Source of the DNA: a virus | Strand: one strand, 5' to 3' | Virus record (IMG/VR): IMGVR_UViG_3300022699_000224 | Span: 25,486-89,485 of that record | DNA: 64,000 bases | Shown here: positions 3,741 through 9,739 of the stretch, piece by piece | How positions within the stretch are numbered: the first letter of the stretch is position 1 | Layout: each line of letters opens with the position of its first letter | Translations under genes and position numbers: made by a program | Notes under the pieces: generated by a model | What the model was told of the DNA's origin: nothing | What the model saw: the letters and a program-made list of their open reading frames with translations, nothing else | Database searches by the model: none

Positions 3741-4229
3741 ATGGATTCTAGACATCTTATTATTTTAGTTGGAAATATAGGAACAGGTAAAACTACACTA
3801 GTTAAAAAATATCAAAAAAAGGGATATGTAGTTATTGCTAGAGACCAATTACGATATACTATAGGTAATGGAGAATATATTTTTAATCATAATTATGAAC
3901 CTATTATTTGGGATTCCGAATTATATATGTTTGAAAGATTTATAGAATTAGGCGTTGATGTTATAATTGATGAAGTAGGATTAAATAAAAAAATGAGAAA
4001 TAGATATATTTCTAAAGCAAAATATTACAATTATTTTATAACTGTTATAGTATTTCCAAAATTAACTATGAAAGAATCTGTTGATAGAAGATTAAATAAT
4101 CCACATGGACAACCTGATAGAAATTTATGGGAAAGAGTATGGAAAAATTTTGATGAAATATATGAAGAACCTACTAAAGATGAAGGTATTGATGAAATTA
4201 TAAGGTTAAAAAGGGAGGATGTTATATGA
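3741..4229 (+). CDS. P-loop kinase (AAA_33, polynucleotide kinase-like)
   Basis: Walker A GNIGTGKT, RDQLR, VIIDE, and C-terminal EEPTKDEG. Confidence 0.8.
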   Translation: MDSRHLIILVGNIGTGKTTLVKKYQKKGYVVIARDQLRYTIGNGEYIFNHNYEPIIWDSELYMFERFIELGVDVIIDEVGLNKKMRNRYISKAKYYNYFITVIVFPKLTMKESVDRRLNNPHGQPDRNLWERVWKNFDEIYEEPTKDEGIDEIIRLKREDVI

Positions 4230-5140: not shown

Positions 5141-5338
5141 ATGGGTGATGTTATTAGAGCAACTGCAATAAATTATTTAAACTTTTTTAAAAAAGCATAT
5201 AAGAAATATAAAGCAACTGATAAGGATACTCGTATGAAAACCGCTTTAAATAGGATAGAGAAATTTATTAAAAAACAACCTACAATAGAAAATTTTATGC
5301 GAGAAGAAATAAAGAAAATTAAAAATGAAATTAATTAA
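5141..5338 (+). CDS. hypothetical protein
   Basis: AGGAGG RBS; 65 aa. Confidence 0.55.
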   Translation: MGDVIRATAINYLNFFKKAYKKYKATDKDTRMKTALNRIEKFIKKQPTIENFMREEIKKIKNEIN

Positions 5339-8300
5339 TATACATAGTAATGGAAGAACTATATATTTATTTTGGAGAGATAACGAAAATAAATTACATG
5401 TAAAACGTAAAAAAGATTTTTTTCCTTATTATTATGAAATATCTCCAAATGAAGAAGGGAAATATAAAGGATATGATAATTCTCCATTGAAAAAAATATA
5501 TGTATCTAAACCAAACGAAGTCAGAAAATTAAGAAGCTCTAACGCATATGAGGCAGATATAATATTTACTAAACGATTCTTAATAGATAAAATAGATAAA
5601 ATAGAGCCTTGTCCTATAAAAATTGCTTATATAGATATAGAAGTTAAAGCTCCTGAATTTCCTAATCCTGATAACGCACAATATCCAGTTTCATGTATTA
5701 GCGTCGGTAACTCTTTTAAAAAAGAAATTAAAACTTTTTGGATAAAAAATTTTGATACTGAATTTGATTTAATAGAAACATTTATAAAATATATGAGAAA
5801 AGAAAAGTATGACCTTTTTTGTAGTTGGCATGTAGATTTTGATTATAATTATTTATATAATCGTTATCCTGATTTTGCAAAAAAACTTAGTCCAATAAAT
5901 GAAACTAGATATGGTAACGATAAAGTCTTATATCCTGCTGGAATATCTATTATAGATTATTTAAGCTGGTTTAAAGCATTTACAAGAAATAAATATAGAG
6001 TATATAGTTTAGACGCAGTTGCTCAAAAAGATTTACAAGAAAAAACATGGGGTAATACTGATTTTGATTCTTTAAATGATGAAATTAAAAAAAAGAATAT
6101 TAATGATGTTAAAAGAATGATTAAATTGGAAAATAAATATAATATAGTTTCATTATTTGATGAAATTCGTAGATTTTCTAAAGTAGAATGGGAAGATTTA
6201 GGAACTTATAATTCTAGAGTTATAGATATGTTAGTATTACAAGAAGCAAAAAATCAAAAAATAGTTTTACCTATGAAACCAAGAGATAAGATAAAAGAAG
6301 AATTCGAAGGAGCATATAGAGATACTTATGAAACAGGTAGATTTTTTAATGTAGGCAAATATGATTTAAGCGGTGCTTATATGTATGCTATTATAGATTT
6401 AGCTTTAGATTCTGCTAATATTAAAGAAAATTCTAATAATAATACTATACCTGTTAATATTACAGATAGAAAAACTCATAAAATTTTGAATACGTATAAT
6501 GTAGAACAAAATAAAAACGGTATATTACCATTAGTAGCAAAAAAATTAATTGATGAAAAGAATAAATTAAAAAAAGAACGAGCTTTATTAGACCCTAATT
6601 CAGAAGAATATAAAATATTAGATAAACGATATGATGCTTTAAAGGTTATAGTGCTTAGTTGTTGGGGAGTTATAGGTAATCAGTATTTCAGATTATTTGA
6701 TTCTAGAGTAGCAGGGATGATTACTTCTGTAGTTAGAAGTCTTATTTGGTATGTAGATGATAAATTGAAAGAATTAGGATATAAAGTCTTATATGTTGAT
6801 ACAGATGGGTTAATAATAGATGATAAAGGGGAAACTATTACAGATTTATTAAATGATTTAATAACTAAATGGGCTAAAGAAAAATTTAATAAAAAGGTAT
6901 CTATAAGATTTGATTGTGAAGGACATTTTGAGAAATTATATATTGCTACTAAATGCAGATATAAAGGTTATTTAAAAACAGATACAGGTATTAAAGAAGA
7001 AACTAAAGGATTAGAAATTAAAAGAAAGGACTCAACTAAGTATATACAGAAATTTCAGGATAAATTGATTGATAAAATTTTAAATAAAGAATCAGAAGAA
7101 ATAGTTATTAAATGGATTAATAACAAAATTAATAATTTTAAAAATAATAAATTAACTGATATTGCATTTCCTTGTAAATTATCTAGGAAACCTAATGATT
7201 ATAAAAATATTCCTATATTTTTAAGAGCATTAAATAATACTGAAAATTTTAATAAAAAAGTAGGGGAATTATATTATTATATTTATGTTAAGCCTAATAA
7301 AGAGAGAAAACGTAAAACAATTATAAAAGTAAAAGAAAAAGAAAATATAATATTAAATAAAGATTTATCTAGAAAGGAAGGTATAGTATACGCAAGAAAA
7401 ACTTATGAGAATTCTAATTTGAAAACATCAGATATAAGTGTATTACATAAAAGAGAAAAAGCTAAAGATGTAGTAGCATTTGATAAAGATAACTATGACC
7501 ATATAAATAAAGAAGATATTGATTGGAAAAAAATGATTGATAGAAATATAATGATGAAAATAGATTCTATATTTAAATCTATGAAATGGGATATAAAAAA
7601 ATTAAATTTTGCGGAGGAAGTGTCGAAAGAGACACATCGAAATACCATTTCGAAAAGTAAGGTGCAAGTCCTTAACTCCGCTCCAAAATCTAATAATAAA
7701 AAATATCCTAATGATTATCCAATAGAAAAAGGTAAAACTTTATCTAAAGAAGAATTAAAAAAATTAAATTTAAAGTGTAAACCAAAAATAAAAAATAGAG
7801 ATAAAATAGAAGAATTTTTAAAAATAAATAATAATAAACAAATAAAAGCATTAAAAAATAATTTTAATCCTGAACCTTATATAGAAGAATATAATTTAGA
7901 TTTTCAATGGGTTAGTTTCATTAATACTATTAGTTCTACTATGTTTAAAAATAGACCTGGAAGAAGTATTAAATTATTAGTAAAAGATAAAAATTATGAT
8001 TTTATATATGGAATTATTTCTTTAAGTAGTCCTATGATTAATAAAAAAATTAATAAATACTTTAAAGATAATAATAAAATGCCTAAAGTAGATTTTAATT
8101 TTATAAATAGACATATTATAGATATAAATGTATGTGTAGGAACAGGAATATTAACTAAATATTTAACAGGTAAATTGTTAACATATATTGCATTATCCGA
8201 AGAAATTAAAAATATGTGGGATAAAAAATATAATACTGATATAAAATATATAATGACTACTTCTATTTATGGAAAATCATCTATTTATAATAGAATTAAA

Positions 8301-8624
8301 TCATTTAAATTTTTAGGATTATCTGAAGGTTGGAATGTAACTTTTACTCAAAAACAAATAGATTGGTTAAAAAAAGAACATAAAAAACTATATCCTCATC
8401 ATAAACTTTCAATTTCAGGAAAATCGTCTCATTTGTTCCGTAGATGGAATCAAGTTTGGAGAAAATACCATGATAAAATGCCATTTTTTCCTTATAAATT
8501 AAGAAGAGGAACTTATTTATTTGATATTAATAAAACTCCTTTTTTAAGTATAAAAGATAATATAAAATATTGGAAAAAAAGATGGTATTATCCTAGAAAG
8601 GAAAGATTAAAGAATGAAAAATAA
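5325..8624 (+). CDS. family B DNA polymerase fused to a C-terminal DUF4338/DruA-like (Mom/GNAT-related) domain
   Basis: Exo DIE and FD motifs, FEGA, motif A YDLSGAY, motif B KVIVLSCWG, motif C YVDTDG, KCRY and KGLEIKRKD (aa 1-760). The C-terminal part contains PGRSIKLLVKD..GIISLSSP, GKLL, WDKKY, TTSIYGKSSIYNR and LGLSEG. Confidence 0.9.
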   Translation: MKLINIHSNGRTIYLFWRDNENKLHVKRKKDFFPYYYEISPNEEGKYKGYDNSPLKKIYVSKPNEVRKLRSSNAYEADIIFTKRFLIDKIDKIEPCPIKIAYIDIEVKAPEFPNPDNAQYPVSCISVGNSFKKEIKTFWIKNFDTEFDLIETFIKYMRKEKYDLFCSWHVDFDYNYLYNRYPDFAKKLSPINETRYGNDKVLYPAGISIIDYLSWFKAFTRNKYRVYSLDAVAQKDLQEKTWGNTDFDSLNDEIKKKNINDVKRMIKLENKYNIVSLFDEIRRFSKVEWEDLGTYNSRVIDMLVLQEAKNQKIVLPMKPRDKIKEEFEGAYRDTYETGRFFNVGKYDLSGAYMYAIIDLALDSANIKENSNNNTIPVNITDRKTHKILNTYNVEQNKNGILPLVAKKLIDEKNKLKKERALLDPNSEEYKILDKRYDALKVIVLSCWGVIGNQYFRLFDSRVAGMITSVVRSLIWYVDDKLKELGYKVLYVDTDGLIIDDKGETITDLLNDLITKWAKEKFNKKVSIRFDCEGHFEKLYIATKCRYKGYLKTDTGIKEETKGLEIKRKDSTKYIQKFQDKLIDKILNKESEEIVIKWINNKINNFKNNKLTDIAFPCKLSRKPNDYKNIPIFLRALNNTENFNKKVGELYYYIYVKPNKERKRKTIIKVKEKENIILNKDLSRKEGIVYARKTYENSNLKTSDISVLHKREKAKDVVAFDKDNYDHINKEDIDWKKMIDRNIMMKIDSIFKSMKWDIKKLNFAEEVSKETHRNTISKSKVQVLNSAPKSNNKKYPNDYPIEKGKTLSKEELKKLNLKCKPKIKNRDKIEEFLKINNNKQIKALKNNFNPEPYIEEYNLDFQWVSFINTISSTMFKNRPGRSIKLLVKDKNYDFIYGIISLSSPMINKKINKYFKDNNKMPKVDFNFINRHIIDINVCVGTGILTKYLTGKLLTYIALSEEIKNMWDKKYNTDIKYIMTTSIYGKSSIYNRIKSFKFLGLSEGWNVTFTQKQIDWLKKEHKKLYPHHKLSISGKSSHLFRRWNQVWRKYHDKMPFFPYKLRRGTYLFDINKTPFLSIKDNIKYWKKRWYYPRKERLKNEK
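7611..7685 (+). tRNA. non-canonical tRNA-Gly(ACC)-like element embedded in frame in the polymerase ORF
   Basis: 75-nt cloverleaf: acceptor GCGGAG/CTCCGC, then U73 and CCA; D stem GTGTC/GACAC; anticodon stem TCGAA/TTCGA with loop ATACCAT; T stem TAAGG/CCTTA with loop TGCAAGT. Confidence 0.8.
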
Positions 8625-8826
8625 ATGTAAGTGTAAAAAACCAGATAGAGTAATAAGTATTCTTAATGGAATAGGTTTTAAATGTGCAAAGTGTAATAAG
8701 TGGATAAAAATATTTCATAAAAAGTTTCATAAACCTACTAAAATAAGAAAATCTAAGAAGAAATATAATAGAAGAAAAGCAAAAAAGAAATTAAGACAAA
8801 AATTAAGAGAGGAGGATATTTCATGA
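8614..8826 (+). CDS. small basic zinc-binding protein
   Basis: CKC...CAKC; Lys/Arg-rich tail. Confidence 0.55.
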   Translation: MKNKCKCKKPDRVISILNGIGFKCAKCNKWIKIFHKKFHKPTKIRKSKKKYNRRKAKKKLRQKLREEDIS

Positions 8827-8954
8827 TTTATTTGATTATATTAGCAATGTTAATATTAGTTGCTTTTATTGCAGGTATGTTTGTTCAAAGAAATAATTAT
8901 ATTCTAAAACCAAAAAAACCTAAAGATATGCATTATGGTAAAATTAATAACTAG
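8823..8954 (+). CDS. small single-pass membrane protein (43 aa; not in ORF track)
   Basis: MIYLIILAMLILVAFIAGMFVQRNN...; GAGGAGG RBS; ATGA overlap. Confidence 0.6.
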   Translation: MIYLIILAMLILVAFIAGMFVQRNNYILKPKKPKDMHYGKINN

Positions 8955-8966
8955 GAGGTGAGGTAA

Positions 8967-9206
8967 ATGATTAAAGGTCAAGATTTAAATATTGAACTTA
9001 AAAAATTAGATTTAAAAATCAGTAAATCTAGCATTACCAATTCTGATGTAGTTAAAGCTATAACTTTACTTATTAAATTAGCTAGAGATATTAGACAAAA
9101 TCAAGTTTTGATGATGAAAGAGAGGGGTATAGATTTGATAAAGCCTCCAAAAGAAAAAAGAGATAAAGATAATACAGAACCTACTAAATCAGATACTAAA
9201 AAATAA
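8967..9206 (+). CDS. hypothetical protein
   Basis: AGGAGGTGAGG RBS. Confidence 0.6.
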   Translation: MIKGQDLNIELKKLDLKISKSSITNSDVVKAITLLIKLARDIRQNQVLMMKERGIDLIKPPKEKRDKDNTEPTKSDTKK

Positions 9207-9214
9207 TTAATTTC

Positions 9215-9289
9215 GGGGCTTGTGGTTTAATAGCCTGATAACTTACTAGGGATTCCTGGTGAGAAATTGTAGATTAACTACCAAGCCCC
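9215..9289 (+). ncRNA. long imperfect hairpin, putative structured RNA element
   Basis: GGGGCTTG/CAAGCCCC closing stem; inner CTTACTAGG/CCTGGTGAG stem whose G-U pairs favour the + strand. Confidence 0.45.
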
Positions 9290-9304: not shown

Positions 9305-9739
9305 ATGAAATTAGAACAGCAAGTATGTAGTTTAGAATTAGCCAAGAAACTTAAAGAGTTAGGAGTTAAGCAAGAGAGTTTGTTTTATTGGCAGAGATAT
9401 ACAGAAAAAAAGACAGGTATTGAAGAATGGGATTTAGCCCTAAGAGGTAAACATACAAGAGATAACGCTTGGAGTTGTTTAACAGGTAATTACCACGATG
9501 GGAGACAATGGATAAGTCATTGGGTAGAAAAAGATGAGGAATACTCCGCCTTCACAGTTGCAGAGCTTGGGGAGATGTTGCCTAAGGGAACTCAATCATA
9601 TCATACTTCGTTTGACTGGTGTTTAACAAATCCTAAATGGGCAACTTCTTATATACAACCAAATTCAACCTTTCTAACATATACCGACACCGAAGCCAAC
9701 GCCAGAGCCAAGATGCTTATATATTTAATTGAGGAATAA
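9305..9739 (+). CDS. conserved phage hypothetical protein
   Basis: VCSLELAKKLKELGV.QES.FYW ... SAFTVAELGEMLP ... TEANARAKMLIYL pattern, recalled from phage proteins; higher GC than neighbours. Confidence 0.7.
   Translation: MKLEQQVCSLELAKKLKELGVKQESLFYWQRYTEKKTGIEEWDLALRGKHTRDNAWSCLTGNYHDGRQWISHWVEKDEEYSAFTVAELGEMLPKGTQSYHTSFDWCLTNPKWATSYIQPNSTFLTYTDTEANARAKMLIYLIEE

What the first reader, a model, noticed from the sequence alone, without database searches (positions are those of the whole stretch)
7611..7685. Embedded tRNA keeps GlyRS identity elements but looks built to avoid translation
Seen in sequence: G1-C72, C2-G71, G3-C70, U73, encoded CCA and anticodon C35/C36, which is the established bacterial tRNA-Gly identity set. 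It departs from normal tRNA in several ways: rare ACC anticodon, A8 instead of U8, no GG in the D loop, T loop TGCAAGT instead of TTCRANT, a G7-A66 mismatch, and an A/U-rich T stem (U49-A65, A50-U64, A51-U63). Weak T-stem pairs and loss of GG/TTC are known features of the staphylococcal non-proteinogenic tRNA-Gly species that escape EF-Tu. Inference: this RNA is chargeable but non-ribosomal, acting as a glycine carrier. It is also dual-coding, read as AEEVSKETHRNTISKSKVQVLNSAP. Excising it would cut the polymerase mRNA, giving a built-in trade-off between fusion protein and tRNA.
Basis: partly seen in the sequence, partly recalled or inferred. Interest (0 to 1): 0.88.

Follow-up and report, generated by a model that had tools for sequence, protein, structure and literature searches.

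The report
Glycine-tRNA look-alike inside polymerase–acyltransferase gene
Twenty-five codons in the joint of a phage DNA-polymerase/acyltransferase fusion gene also spell a conserved, deformed glycine tRNA that is probably the enzyme's own carrier of activated glycine, perhaps for disguising phage DNA, though no chemistry has been tested.

Summary
Window 7611-7685 (+) folds as a perfect 75-nt cloverleaf (z -4.6) with anticodon ACC, G1-C72/C2-G71/G3-C70, U73 and an encoded CCA. It lacks U8, G18 and U55, so default ARAGORN and Rfam miss it.

It is not a chance structure. A covariance model finds 22 distinct relatives, always on the strand of a neighbouring GNAT-fold gene. 96% of cells pair, 19 of 21 pairs show compensatory changes, and C35/C36 and G1-C72 never vary.

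Here the RNA lies in frame between a family-B DNA polymerase and a DruA/DUF4338 GNAT domain in one 1099-aa ORF. A related 90.6-kb phage contig has PolB, the same RNA, then a Mom-family GNAT. Mom transfers glycine from Gly-tRNAGly to DNA adenine (Silva et al. 2026).

Best reading: a private, probably non-decoding glycyl carrier for the fused GNAT, with DNA as the likely target. Charging, processing and chemistry are untested. The "weak T stem / EF-Tu escape" argument is not supported across the family.

This scan has already noted DruA- or Mom-linked tRNA-Gly mimics on other DNA. A tRNA-Gly-like locus inside mom homologues was printed in 2011 without a function. The DruA-type polymerase fusion was not found in print.

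The parts
5325..8624 (+). Single 1099-aa ORF: family-B DNA polymerase + tRNA-like joint + DruA/DUF4338 GNAT domain
   Evidence: ORF list and translation. Pfam DNA_pol_B residues 359-668 (E 1e-25) and DruA PF14236 residues 862-1034 (31.8 bits, cut-off 27). phrog_262 DNA polymerase covers residues 5-765, profile positions 12-849 of 856.
5325..7610 (+). PolB part; the polymerase homology ends where the RNA begins, and there is no stop codon
   Evidence: phrog_262 match ends at residue 765; the RNA encodes residues 763-787. In the related contig L406 the PolB ORF (40% identity) ends with a stop 68 nt before the same RNA.
7551..7610 (+). Possible internal start (ATG ATG at 7551-7556) and 20-codon leader before the RNA. 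Weak resemblance to the Met-led leaders of the Mom-type ORFs in L406, L409 and L410.
   Evidence: In-frame start codons listed; leaders of L406/L409/L410. The resemblance was judged by eye and is weak. The promoter-like site 7523-7552 is not above shuffled expectation.
7611..7685 (+). Non-canonical tRNA-Gly(ACC)-like RNA gene, in frame in the ORF (anticodon 7644-7646, CCA 7683-7685)
   Evidence: (ARAGORN relaxed; R1 70.8 bits; the window was a seed member; covariation; tertiary 18/55 covariation).
7686..8621 (+). DruA/DUF4338-family GNAT-fold domain. No in-frame ATG/GTG/TTG between the RNA and ATG 7941, which lies past residues invariant in homologues.
   Evidence: Pfam. Seventeen stand-alone homologues of 197-362 aa at 37-71% identity (P0004-P0020), plus two weak matches. 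AlphaFold2 pLDDT 90.2. GNAT fold: Foldseek; VIA-align Z about 10, with Mom 8bv8_B at Z 9.6, rmsd 3.6, 162 aligned. Start-codon scan. Invariant columns.

Best explanation
7611-7685 encodes a real, L-shaped, tRNA-Gly-like RNA that works with the GNAT acyltransferase encoded directly after it in the same ORF. It is probably cut out of the transcript by RNase P at its 5' end and by 3' trimming to the encoded CCA. It would then be glycylated by the host GlyRS, since it keeps G1-C72, C2-G71, G3-C70, U73, C35 and C36. The DruA-type GNAT would use it as a private donor of activated glycine, as phage Mu Mom uses Gly-tRNAGly. The fusion to the DNA polymerase, and the Mom-family enzyme at the same site in a related phage, point to phage DNA as the likely acceptor. 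Shown here: the structure, its conservation and covariation, its linkage to GNAT genes of two families, the in-frame embedding, and the fold of the enzyme. Inferred: processing, charging, exclusion from the ribosome, glycyl transfer and the acceptor. Because the RNA lies inside the only open frame for the GNAT, one transcript can give either the RNA or the full protein. That may set the ratio of enzyme to donor, but this is speculative.
For: (1) Structure and conservation. The model R1 finds the element next to GNAT genes, with every match on the GNAT strand. It matches in 16 of 80 viral DruA-like loci. It gives 10 good hits in 8 of 80 metagenome DruA-like loci. It matches in 6 of 24 loci of the L406-type Mom clade, one of which is L406's own contig. 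On 22 distinct sequences, 96.3% of cells pair, 19/21 pairs change on both sides (155 cells), 0/500 shuffles reach this, and slid controls give 39-57%. D-loop column 19 and T-loop column 57 covary perfectly in 17 sequences (G-U 7, A-G 8, U-G 2), so the tRNA elbow is kept with an alternative 18:55 pair.
(2) Glycine identity. Default ARAGORN on the 80 viral DruA loci tRNAs: 13 Gly and 2 '?(cc)', and no other type. The anticodon is always NCC.
(3) Link to known chemistry. L406, a 90.6-kb contig with a PolB 40% identical to the window's, has PolB, stop, the same RNA (acceptor and D arm nearly identical, anticodon stem compensated), then an ORF with Pfam Mom PF25680 (146 bits, E 1e-42; hhalign 99.2%). 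Mom transfers glycine from Gly-tRNAGly to N6 of dA in dsDNA (PMC13219725: abstract and sections 13-14 read).
(4) The window's C-domain is a confident GNAT fold, and Mom has the longest aligned stretch among the top-ranked rows.
(5) DNA context. The domain is fused to PolB here. The homologue lies directly after the DNA polymerase in Pelagibacter phage HTVC008M and between gp44 and gp62 in S-SM2. Other DruA-domain proteins carry HTH_7+LAGLIDADG or NUMOD3.
(6) RNA-level rather than peptide-level selection. Homologue P0005 differs at 10 of 25 residues, yet its peptide still allows 20/21 base pairs (0/1000 random and 1/1000 permuted substitutions do). The real DNA of L211 encodes the same peptide. 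In a five-way DNA alignment the invariant columns cluster in the RNA.
Against: There is no experimental or transcript evidence of any kind. No sequencing run could be listed, so expression, ends and charging are unknown. The window's GNAT is not a Mom-family member (no Pfam Mom hit at E<=10; hhalign probability 0.15-0.2), so Mom's chemistry is transferred by analogy and by shared genomic position only. GNAT structural matches are generic: many acetyl-CoA enzymes score Z 9-10, and TacT/AtaT, which acetylate aminoacyl-tRNA rather than use it as a donor, also match. The linkage is partial. The closest protein relatives with DNA in hand (L200-L210, 39-55% identity) have no such RNA within +/-4 kb even with filters off. 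Five viral records searched whole had none, though all are fragments. Of 42 loci from cellular genomes, 41 had none. R1 also picks up ordinary tRNAs at 36-48 bits, so the weakest members rest on their anticodon and position. The fusion rests on a single assembly.
Confidence: 0.6

Rival explanations
1. The GNAT acts on the RNA rather than with it. It would be a TacT/AtaT-like enzyme that acylates Gly-tRNAGly, for host shut-off or self-regulation, and the private tRNA-like RNA would be its substrate, decoy or antidote.
For: TacT, TacT3 and AtaT (GNATs that acetylate aminoacyl-tRNA; TacT with acetyl-glycyl-tRNAGly, 7f36) are among the structural matches. The tight gene-RNA pairing would also suit a toxin-antidote pair.
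Against: The same RNA family pairs with Mom-family genes, whose founding member uses Gly-tRNAGly as a donor onto DNA (PMC13219725). Fusion to PolB and to DNA-binding modules points to DNA rather than translation.
Confidence: 0.12
2. It is an ordinary, if divergent, decoding phage tRNA-Gly that happens to lie between two genes fused by loss of a stop codon.
For: It has a complete cloverleaf, a 7-nt anticodon loop with U33 and A37, and an encoded CCA. Some family members are near-canonical and are called by default ARAGORN. Phage tRNAs with the same T arm exist.
Against: It is the only tRNA-like gene in an 89-kb genome. A34 is unusual for bacterial tRNA-Gly (recalled). U8, G18 and U55 are replaced. 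There is no Rfam tRNA hit at E<=10. Position 34 varies freely across the family while C35/C36 do not. Every tRNA called near DruA-type genes is Gly and co-oriented with them.
Confidence: 0.08
3. It is an uncharged processing or regulatory structure. RNase P/Z cleavage would separate the PolB and GNAT messages (tRNA punctuation), or the structure would slow ribosomes, with no role for aminoacylation.
For: It lies exactly at the domain joint. Excision would give a stop-less PolB message and a start-less GNAT message. In 12 of 15 adjacent or overlapping cases in both GNAT families, the enzyme's frame runs through the RNA.
Against: A cleavage signal would not need invariant C35/C36, U73 and an encoded CCA, nor linkage to GNAT genes specifically. 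In other lineages the RNA lies up to several kb from the gene.
Confidence: 0.1
4. It is a relic: a decayed tRNA gene or phage attachment site with no present function.
For: It fails standard tRNA detection.
Against: There are 19/21 covarying pairs, a tertiary covariation, and nucleotide-level conservation against unalignable flanks. No integrase context was seen among the neighbours scanned.
Confidence: 0.02

Closest known systems
Phage Mu Mom with host Gly-tRNAGly (Pfam PF25680; PDB 8bv8; Silva et al., Nat Commun 2026, PMC13219725; bioRxiv 10.1101/2023.03.24.534169)
   Same: A GNAT-fold phage enzyme combined with a glycine tRNA. A Mom-family gene sits at the same place, after PolB and the same RNA, in the related contig L406. 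The fold match is Z 9.6 over 162 residues.
   Different: The window's enzyme belongs to the DruA/DUF4338 family and has no detectable sequence relation to Mom. Mu uses host tRNA: the 80 Mu-like mom loci have no tRNA-Gly. Here the phage encodes its own deformed tRNA inside the enzyme's ORF, and the enzyme is fused to PolB. The product and acceptor are unknown.
76-bp tRNA-Gly-like 'pseudo-tRNA' within the first 150 bp of mom homologues in Dehalococcoides ssrA genomic islands (McMurdie et al., BMC Genomics 2011, PMC3146451; passages read)
   Same: [quoted passage not shown] L406, L409 and L410 have the same layout, and so does the window with a DruA-type enzyme.
   Different: It was described as a conserved locus with no function proposed; Mom's tRNA dependence was not yet known. 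It lies in an integrative element of a bacterium, not a phage, with a Mom-type rather than DruA-type enzyme and no polymerase fusion. I could not compare the sequences: its figures are supplements, and my one scan of genome contigs was already used.
Non-proteogenic tRNAGly isoacceptors of Staphylococcus aureus with FmhB/Fem transferases (Rietmeyer et al., NAR 2020, PMC7826273; passages read)
   Same: [quoted passage not shown] They serve a GNAT-fold transferase outside the ribosome while EF-Tu sequesters the proteogenic ones.
   Different: They are cellular and feed peptidoglycan synthesis through a Fem-family partner. The weak-T-stem feature is not conserved in the phage family. The phage RNAs change U8 and the 18:55 tertiary pair instead.
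DruA of Druantia type I (Pfam PF14236, DUF4338; called a GNAT domain in PMC10853773, passage read)
   Same: The window's C-domain passes the Pfam DruA cut-off (31.8-33.2 bits against 27).
   Different: It is a phage gene fused to PolB, not part of a defence operon. In 42 loci of distant relatives from cellular genomes, only one weak RNA match was found. No function for DruA was found in print.

Membership tests
Canonical bacterial tRNA (Rfam RF00005 / ARAGORN default) | Cloverleaf with 7-bp acceptor, 4-5-bp D, 5-bp anticodon and 5-bp T stems, and a 7-nt anticodon loop with U33 and purine 37 | tested here: met
   MFE equals the cloverleaf, 20/21 pairs, loop AUACCAU.
Canonical bacterial tRNA (Rfam RF00005 / ARAGORN default) | Universal tertiary nucleotides U8, G18-G19 and T54-Psi55-C56 | tested here: not met
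   A8; the D loop has no GG; the T loop is UGCAAGU with G at 55. G19/C56 and T54/A58 appear to be kept.
Canonical bacterial tRNA (Rfam RF00005 / ARAGORN default) | Detected at standard thresholds | tested here: not met
   ARAGORN default finds 0 genes. Rfam finds no match at E<=10. It is called only at -ps80 or in mitochondrial mode.
Substrate of bacterial GlyRS (identity set as listed in PMC7826273, plus G3-C70 from recall) | G1-C72, C2-G71, (G3-C70), U73, C35, C36 | tested here: met
   All are present in the window and nearly invariant in the family.
Substrate of bacterial GlyRS (identity set as listed in PMC7826273, plus G3-C70 from recall) | Actually aminoacylated with glycine | not testable with these tools
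   This needs an in vitro or in vivo charging assay.
   R1 scores 70.8 bits (the window was a seed member, so this match is by construction). The independent relatives L211, L406, L409 and L410 share the A8A9, D arm, T loop and frame.
Mom family (PF25680) | Sequence match to the Mom profile | tested here: not met
   No Pfam Mom hit at E<=10 for the window's C-domain. hhalign A1 vs Mu Mom gives probability 0.2 and A1 vs Mom alignment A5 gives 0.15.
Mom family (PF25680) | GNAT fold resembling Mom | tested here: inconclusive
   8bv8_B scores Z 9.6, rmsd 3.6, 162 aligned, but this is tied with many generic GNATs at Z 9-10.
DruA / DUF4338 (PF14236) | Sequence match above Pfam's gathering score | tested here: met
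   31.8 bits in the full protein and 33.2 bits in the domain alone, against a cut-off of 27.
DruA / DUF4338 (PF14236) | Part of a Druantia type I operon (DruB-DruE) | tested here: inconclusive
   The ten neighbouring ORFs scanned with PHROGs show a P-loop kinase, SbcCD-like proteins, a pyrophosphatase and sugar enzymes, and no DruE-type helicase. Dru profiles were not searched directly.

The most novel reading that the evidence does not exclude
DruA/DUF4338 GNATs are a second, independent family of Gly-tRNA-dependent nucleic-acid-modifying enzymes. In this phage the enzyme rides on the replicative polymerase and carries its own glycyl-tRNA cofactor gene inside its reading frame. Replication, enzyme supply and donor supply would then be wired into one transcript, with tRNA excision against translation acting as an either/or switch. 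If so, the DruA component of Druantia type I defence would also be a tRNA-dependent modifier, and a new glycine-derived DNA hypermodification awaits discovery.
Probability: 0.35. Interest if true: 0.88.

Novelty: new variant of a known kind. Interest (0 to 1): 0.78.

Why it matters
Mom showed only recently that a GNAT can take glycine from charged tRNA and put it on DNA. This locus suggests that the principle is wider. A second, unrelated GNAT family (DruA/DUF4338, of unknown function, and also part of a bacterial defence system) is paired with the same kind of private, deformed tRNA-Gly. The two enzyme families replace each other at one genomic site next to the replicative polymerase. That gives a concrete, testable function for DUF4338. 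It predicts an unrecognised DNA (or other) modification in uncultured phages. It offers a natural example of a tRNA whose identity elements are kept while its ribosomal features are discarded. It also shows an unusual gene architecture: an RNA cofactor gene read in frame inside the ORF of its enzyme.

Tried and rejected
- Rfam at gathering thresholds over the whole window, and at E<=10 over 7300-8000, gave nothing.
- A single-protein search of viral contigs with the GNAT domain found no relative.
- The exact 15-mer of the T arm gave 116+ hits in viral contigs. By my own rough estimate that is about the number expected by chance. Some hits are genuine phage tRNAs with the same T arm, but none is a close relative.
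For P0005 I inferred base pairing from the peptide instead.
- The closest relatives with DNA in hand (L200-L210, L118, L119) have no R1 match within the fetched flanks, even with filters off. The only hit is a tRNA-Pro at 21 bits.
- Five viral records searched whole had none, but all are fragments.
- A PDB sequence search with the GNAT profile found nothing relevant.
- Sequencing runs: none was listed, and no RNA holder was listed.
- A promoter/terminator scan over 7200-8900 found 12 promoter-like sites against 15.2 expected and 0 terminators. This is uninformative.
- The 70-aa ORF 8614-8826 just downstream, which another first-stage note reads as ArfA-like, has no Pfam hit at E<=1 and no PHROG hit. 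That idea is left open.
- The frame-through-tRNA statistic for DruA-type cases is only suggestive: the frame is open in 8 of 10 cases against about 5.3 expected from the number of open frames.
- The supplements of PMC3146451 and PMC13219725 (tRNA figure, homologue lists) were closed. They may already show related RNAs or neighbourhoods.
- Literature searches for a printed link between DruA/DUF4338 or Mom and a virus-encoded tRNA-Gly found only the 2011 Dehalococcoides observation (in-text searches).
Full report
**Setting.** The window is bases 25486-89485 of a complete 89,485-bp IMG/VR virus record with direct terminal repeats. GC content is about 23% on the early strand. It is a tailed phage: it has tape-measure and baseplate proteins. 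ORF 5325-8624 (+) encodes 1099 residues. Residues 5-765 match a complete family-B DNA polymerase (phrog_262, profile positions 12-849 of 856; Pfam DNA_pol_B). Residues 862-1034 match Pfam DruA/DUF4338, at 31.8 bits against a cut-off of 27. The finding, 7611-7685, encodes residues 763-787, which is exactly the joint between the two domains.

**The observation.**
- The 75 nt fold into a perfect cloverleaf as the minimum-free-energy structure (-26 kcal/mol; z -4.6; 0 of 200 shuffles as stable).
- Default ARAGORN finds no tRNA in the window or in the whole genome. Rfam finds nothing at E<=10.
- ARAGORN at a relaxed threshold, or in mitochondrial mode, calls tRNA-Gly(ACC) with exactly these ends.
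- So the RNA has a tRNA shape and glycine identity but lacks several universal tertiary nucleotides: A8 for U8, no G18, and G55 for U55.

**Relatives of the protein lead to relatives of the RNA.** The C-terminal domain has 17 stand-alone homologues of 197-362 aa at 37-71% identity, plus two weak matches. An alignment of them (A1) retrieved three sets of loci: 80 from viral contigs, 80 from metagenomes and 42 from cellular genomes.
- Default ARAGORN on the 80 viral loci called 15 tRNAs: 13 Gly and 2 '?(cc)', and no other type.
- I built a covariance model (R1) from ten of these sequences, including the window.
- R1 matched in 16 of the 80 viral loci.
- R1 gave ten good matches in 8 of the 80 metagenome loci. 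Default ARAGORN saw only one of those.
- R1 gave one weak match in the 42 cellular loci.
- Every match is on the strand of the GNAT gene.
- Many matches lie within about 100 nt of the gene or inside its open frame. Others lie 0.6-4.7 kb away.
- The metagenome members share the window's oddities: A8A9, a D loop without GG, and a T loop UGCRANU.

**Structure is under selection.** On 22 distinct sequences (alignment A7):
- 96.3% of cells form standard pairs, and 19 of 21 pairs change on both sides (155 cells). No shuffle of 500 reaches the observed pairing or covariation. Sliding the partners gives only 39-57% pairing.
- The alignment was fitted to the model, which favours pairing, but the slid controls share that bias.
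- G1-C72 (22/22), G53-C61 (22/22), C2-G71 (21/22) and G3-C70 (20/22) hardly vary.
- In the 17-sequence set, C35/C36 are invariant, U73 is 16/17 and CCA is 15/17. Position 34 takes A, U, G or C.
- The strongest D-loop/T-loop mutual information is between the columns for positions 18 and 55: G with U seven times, A with G eight times, and U with G twice, with no exception. The window has A and G. The elbow of the L-shape is therefore kept through an alternative tertiary pair.
- By contrast, T-stem pairs 49-65, 50-64 and 51-63 are as often G-C as A-U. The window's A/U-rich T stem is therefore not a conserved device; it may simply reflect its AT-rich genome.

**RNA constraint versus peptide constraint.** Homologue P0005 has an N-terminal extension whose peptide matches the window's 25 residues at 15 positions.
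- The ten differences are those expected from compensatory stem changes. The P0005 peptide can still be back-translated to 20 of 21 pairs. None of 1000 random substitution sets, and 1 of 1000 permuted sets, reach that (one search was void because of my slip).
- The real DNA of locus L211 encodes the identical peptide and shows the predicted compensations and a UCC anticodon.
- In a five-way DNA alignment (window, L211, L406, L409, L410) the invariant columns cluster in the RNA, with only scattered ones in the flanks.

**The enzyme.** AlphaFold2 gives a confident model (pLDDT 90.2) with a GNAT fold.
- Foldseek and VIA-align return acetyltransferases at Z about 10. Among them is phage Mu Mom (8bv8_B: Z 9.6, rmsd 3.6, 162 aligned, the longest alignment among the top ten rows), along with the tRNA-acetylating toxins TacT and AtaT.
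- These scores are tied and show only the fold.
- A published domain survey also calls DUF4338 a GNAT (PMC10853773, passage read).
- By sequence the domain is not a Mom: there is no Pfam Mom hit at E<=10, and hhalign probabilities are 0.15-0.2.

**The link to known chemistry.** Mom transfers glycine from Gly-tRNAGly to N6 of adenine in dsDNA (Silva et al. 2026, PMC13219725; abstract and sections 13-14 read).
- A DNA motif from the D arm found L406, from a 90.6-kb viral contig.
- L406 has a PolB 40% identical to the window's, ending in a stop codon. It is followed 68 nt later by the same RNA (R1 61.6 bits; acceptor and D arm nearly identical, anticodon stem compensated, anticodon UCC).
- That RNA lies in frame in an ORF whose residues 89-291 are a Mom-family domain (PF25680, 146 bits, E 1e-42; hhalign 99.2%).
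- Of 24 viral loci with relatives of that Mom protein, 6 carry an R1 match on the gene's strand; one of the six is L406's own contig.
- In L409 and L410 the RNA lies, as in L406, after a conserved Met-led leader and in frame. In L424 the Mom frame runs through it at the 3' end.
- As a control, the 80 best loci of Mu-like mom genes have only three R1 matches. These are ordinary tRNA-Met, -Thr and -Arg, and none is next to mom.
- So the same RNA family serves two unrelated GNAT families, and the two replace each other at the site after PolB in related phages.

**Embedding and expression.** In the window there is no stop codon between PolB and the RNA.
- There is also no in-frame ATG, GTG or TTG between the RNA and ATG 7941, which lies beyond residues invariant in all homologues.
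- The GNAT must therefore be translated through the RNA. This could be as the 1099-aa fusion, or from internal starts at 7533, 7551, 7554 or 7581, or from GTG 7620 or 7662 inside the RNA.
- Codons 7551-7610 weakly resemble the leaders of the Mom-type ORFs (judged by eye).
- In 8 of 10 adjacent DruA-type cases, and in 4 of 5 Mom-type cases, the enzyme's frame stays open through the RNA. For the DruA set about 5.3 were expected from the number of open frames, so this is suggestive only.
- Excision of the RNA would sever the message. The either/or consequence is a logical inference and has not been observed.

**What is known in print.** McMurdie et al. 2011 (PMC3146451; passages read) reported a conserved 76-bp tRNA-Gly-like locus within the first 150 bp of mom homologues in Dehalococcoides islands. 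They proposed no function.
- The Mom papers do not mention it.
- I found nothing in print on DruA/DUF4338 with a tRNA. Supplements were closed.
- Earlier reports of this scan describe DruA- or Mom-linked tRNA-Gly mimics in at least 61 other genomes, including PolB-Mom fusions.
- I reached the DruA-tRNA-Mom reading before reading those notes.

**Verdict.** The RNA is a genuine member of a conserved family of GNAT-linked tRNA-Gly look-alikes.
- The most likely function is a private glycyl donor for the fused DruA-type GNAT, probably acting on DNA (confidence 0.6).
- Rivals remain: the GNAT acting on the charged RNA, an ordinary decoding tRNA, a pure processing signal, or a relic.
- It is a new variant of a known kind: tRNA-dependent GNAT modification with a different enzyme family, its own deformed tRNA in frame, and fusion to the polymerase.

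Noticed in passing
window 9215-9289 (+): A second GC-rich (0.44) structured 75-nt island in the gap between ORFs 8967-9206 and 9305-9739. MFE -30.5, z -5.2, 0/200 shuffles. An 8-bp closing stem encloses three hairpins (cloverleaf-like), but there is no CCA and the middle loop is only 4 nt. A Shine-Dalgarno-like GGAG and the ATG of the next ORF follow directly. ARAGORN and Rfam do not call it.
   Followed up: partly
L406:1514-2478: The PolB homologue of the related 90.6-kb contig aligns to the window's PolB in two blocks separated by about 960 nt of extra in-frame sequence. This may be an intein or a homing-endonuclease insertion, which the window's PolB lacks.
   Followed up: no
window 3741-4229 (+): A P-loop ORF that matches polynucleotide-kinase, ATPase and RNA-ligase PHROGs lies 1 kb upstream of PolB. 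An ORF with a P-loop-like motif also lies downstream of the Mom-type gene in L406. A role in RNA end healing or tRNA repair was not examined.
   Followed up: no
P0002 and P0003 (metagenome proteins): DruA-domain proteins fused to HTH_7 + LAGLIDADG_3 or to NUMOD3, which are modules typical of homing endonucleases and DNA binding. In cultured T4-like phages the DruA-like gene sits between gp44 and gp62 (S-SM2) or directly after the DNA polymerase (HTVC008M).
   Followed up: partly
L225:4747-4822 and 6947-7022: One metagenome contig carries two different tRNA-Gly(ACC)-like genes. One overlaps the 3' end of the DruA-like ORF and the other lies 2.1 kb further downstream.
   Followed up: no
window 8614-8826 (+): A 70-aa, very basic, Cys-containing ORF overlaps the end of the fusion ORF. 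It has no Pfam or PHROG family.
   Followed up: partly
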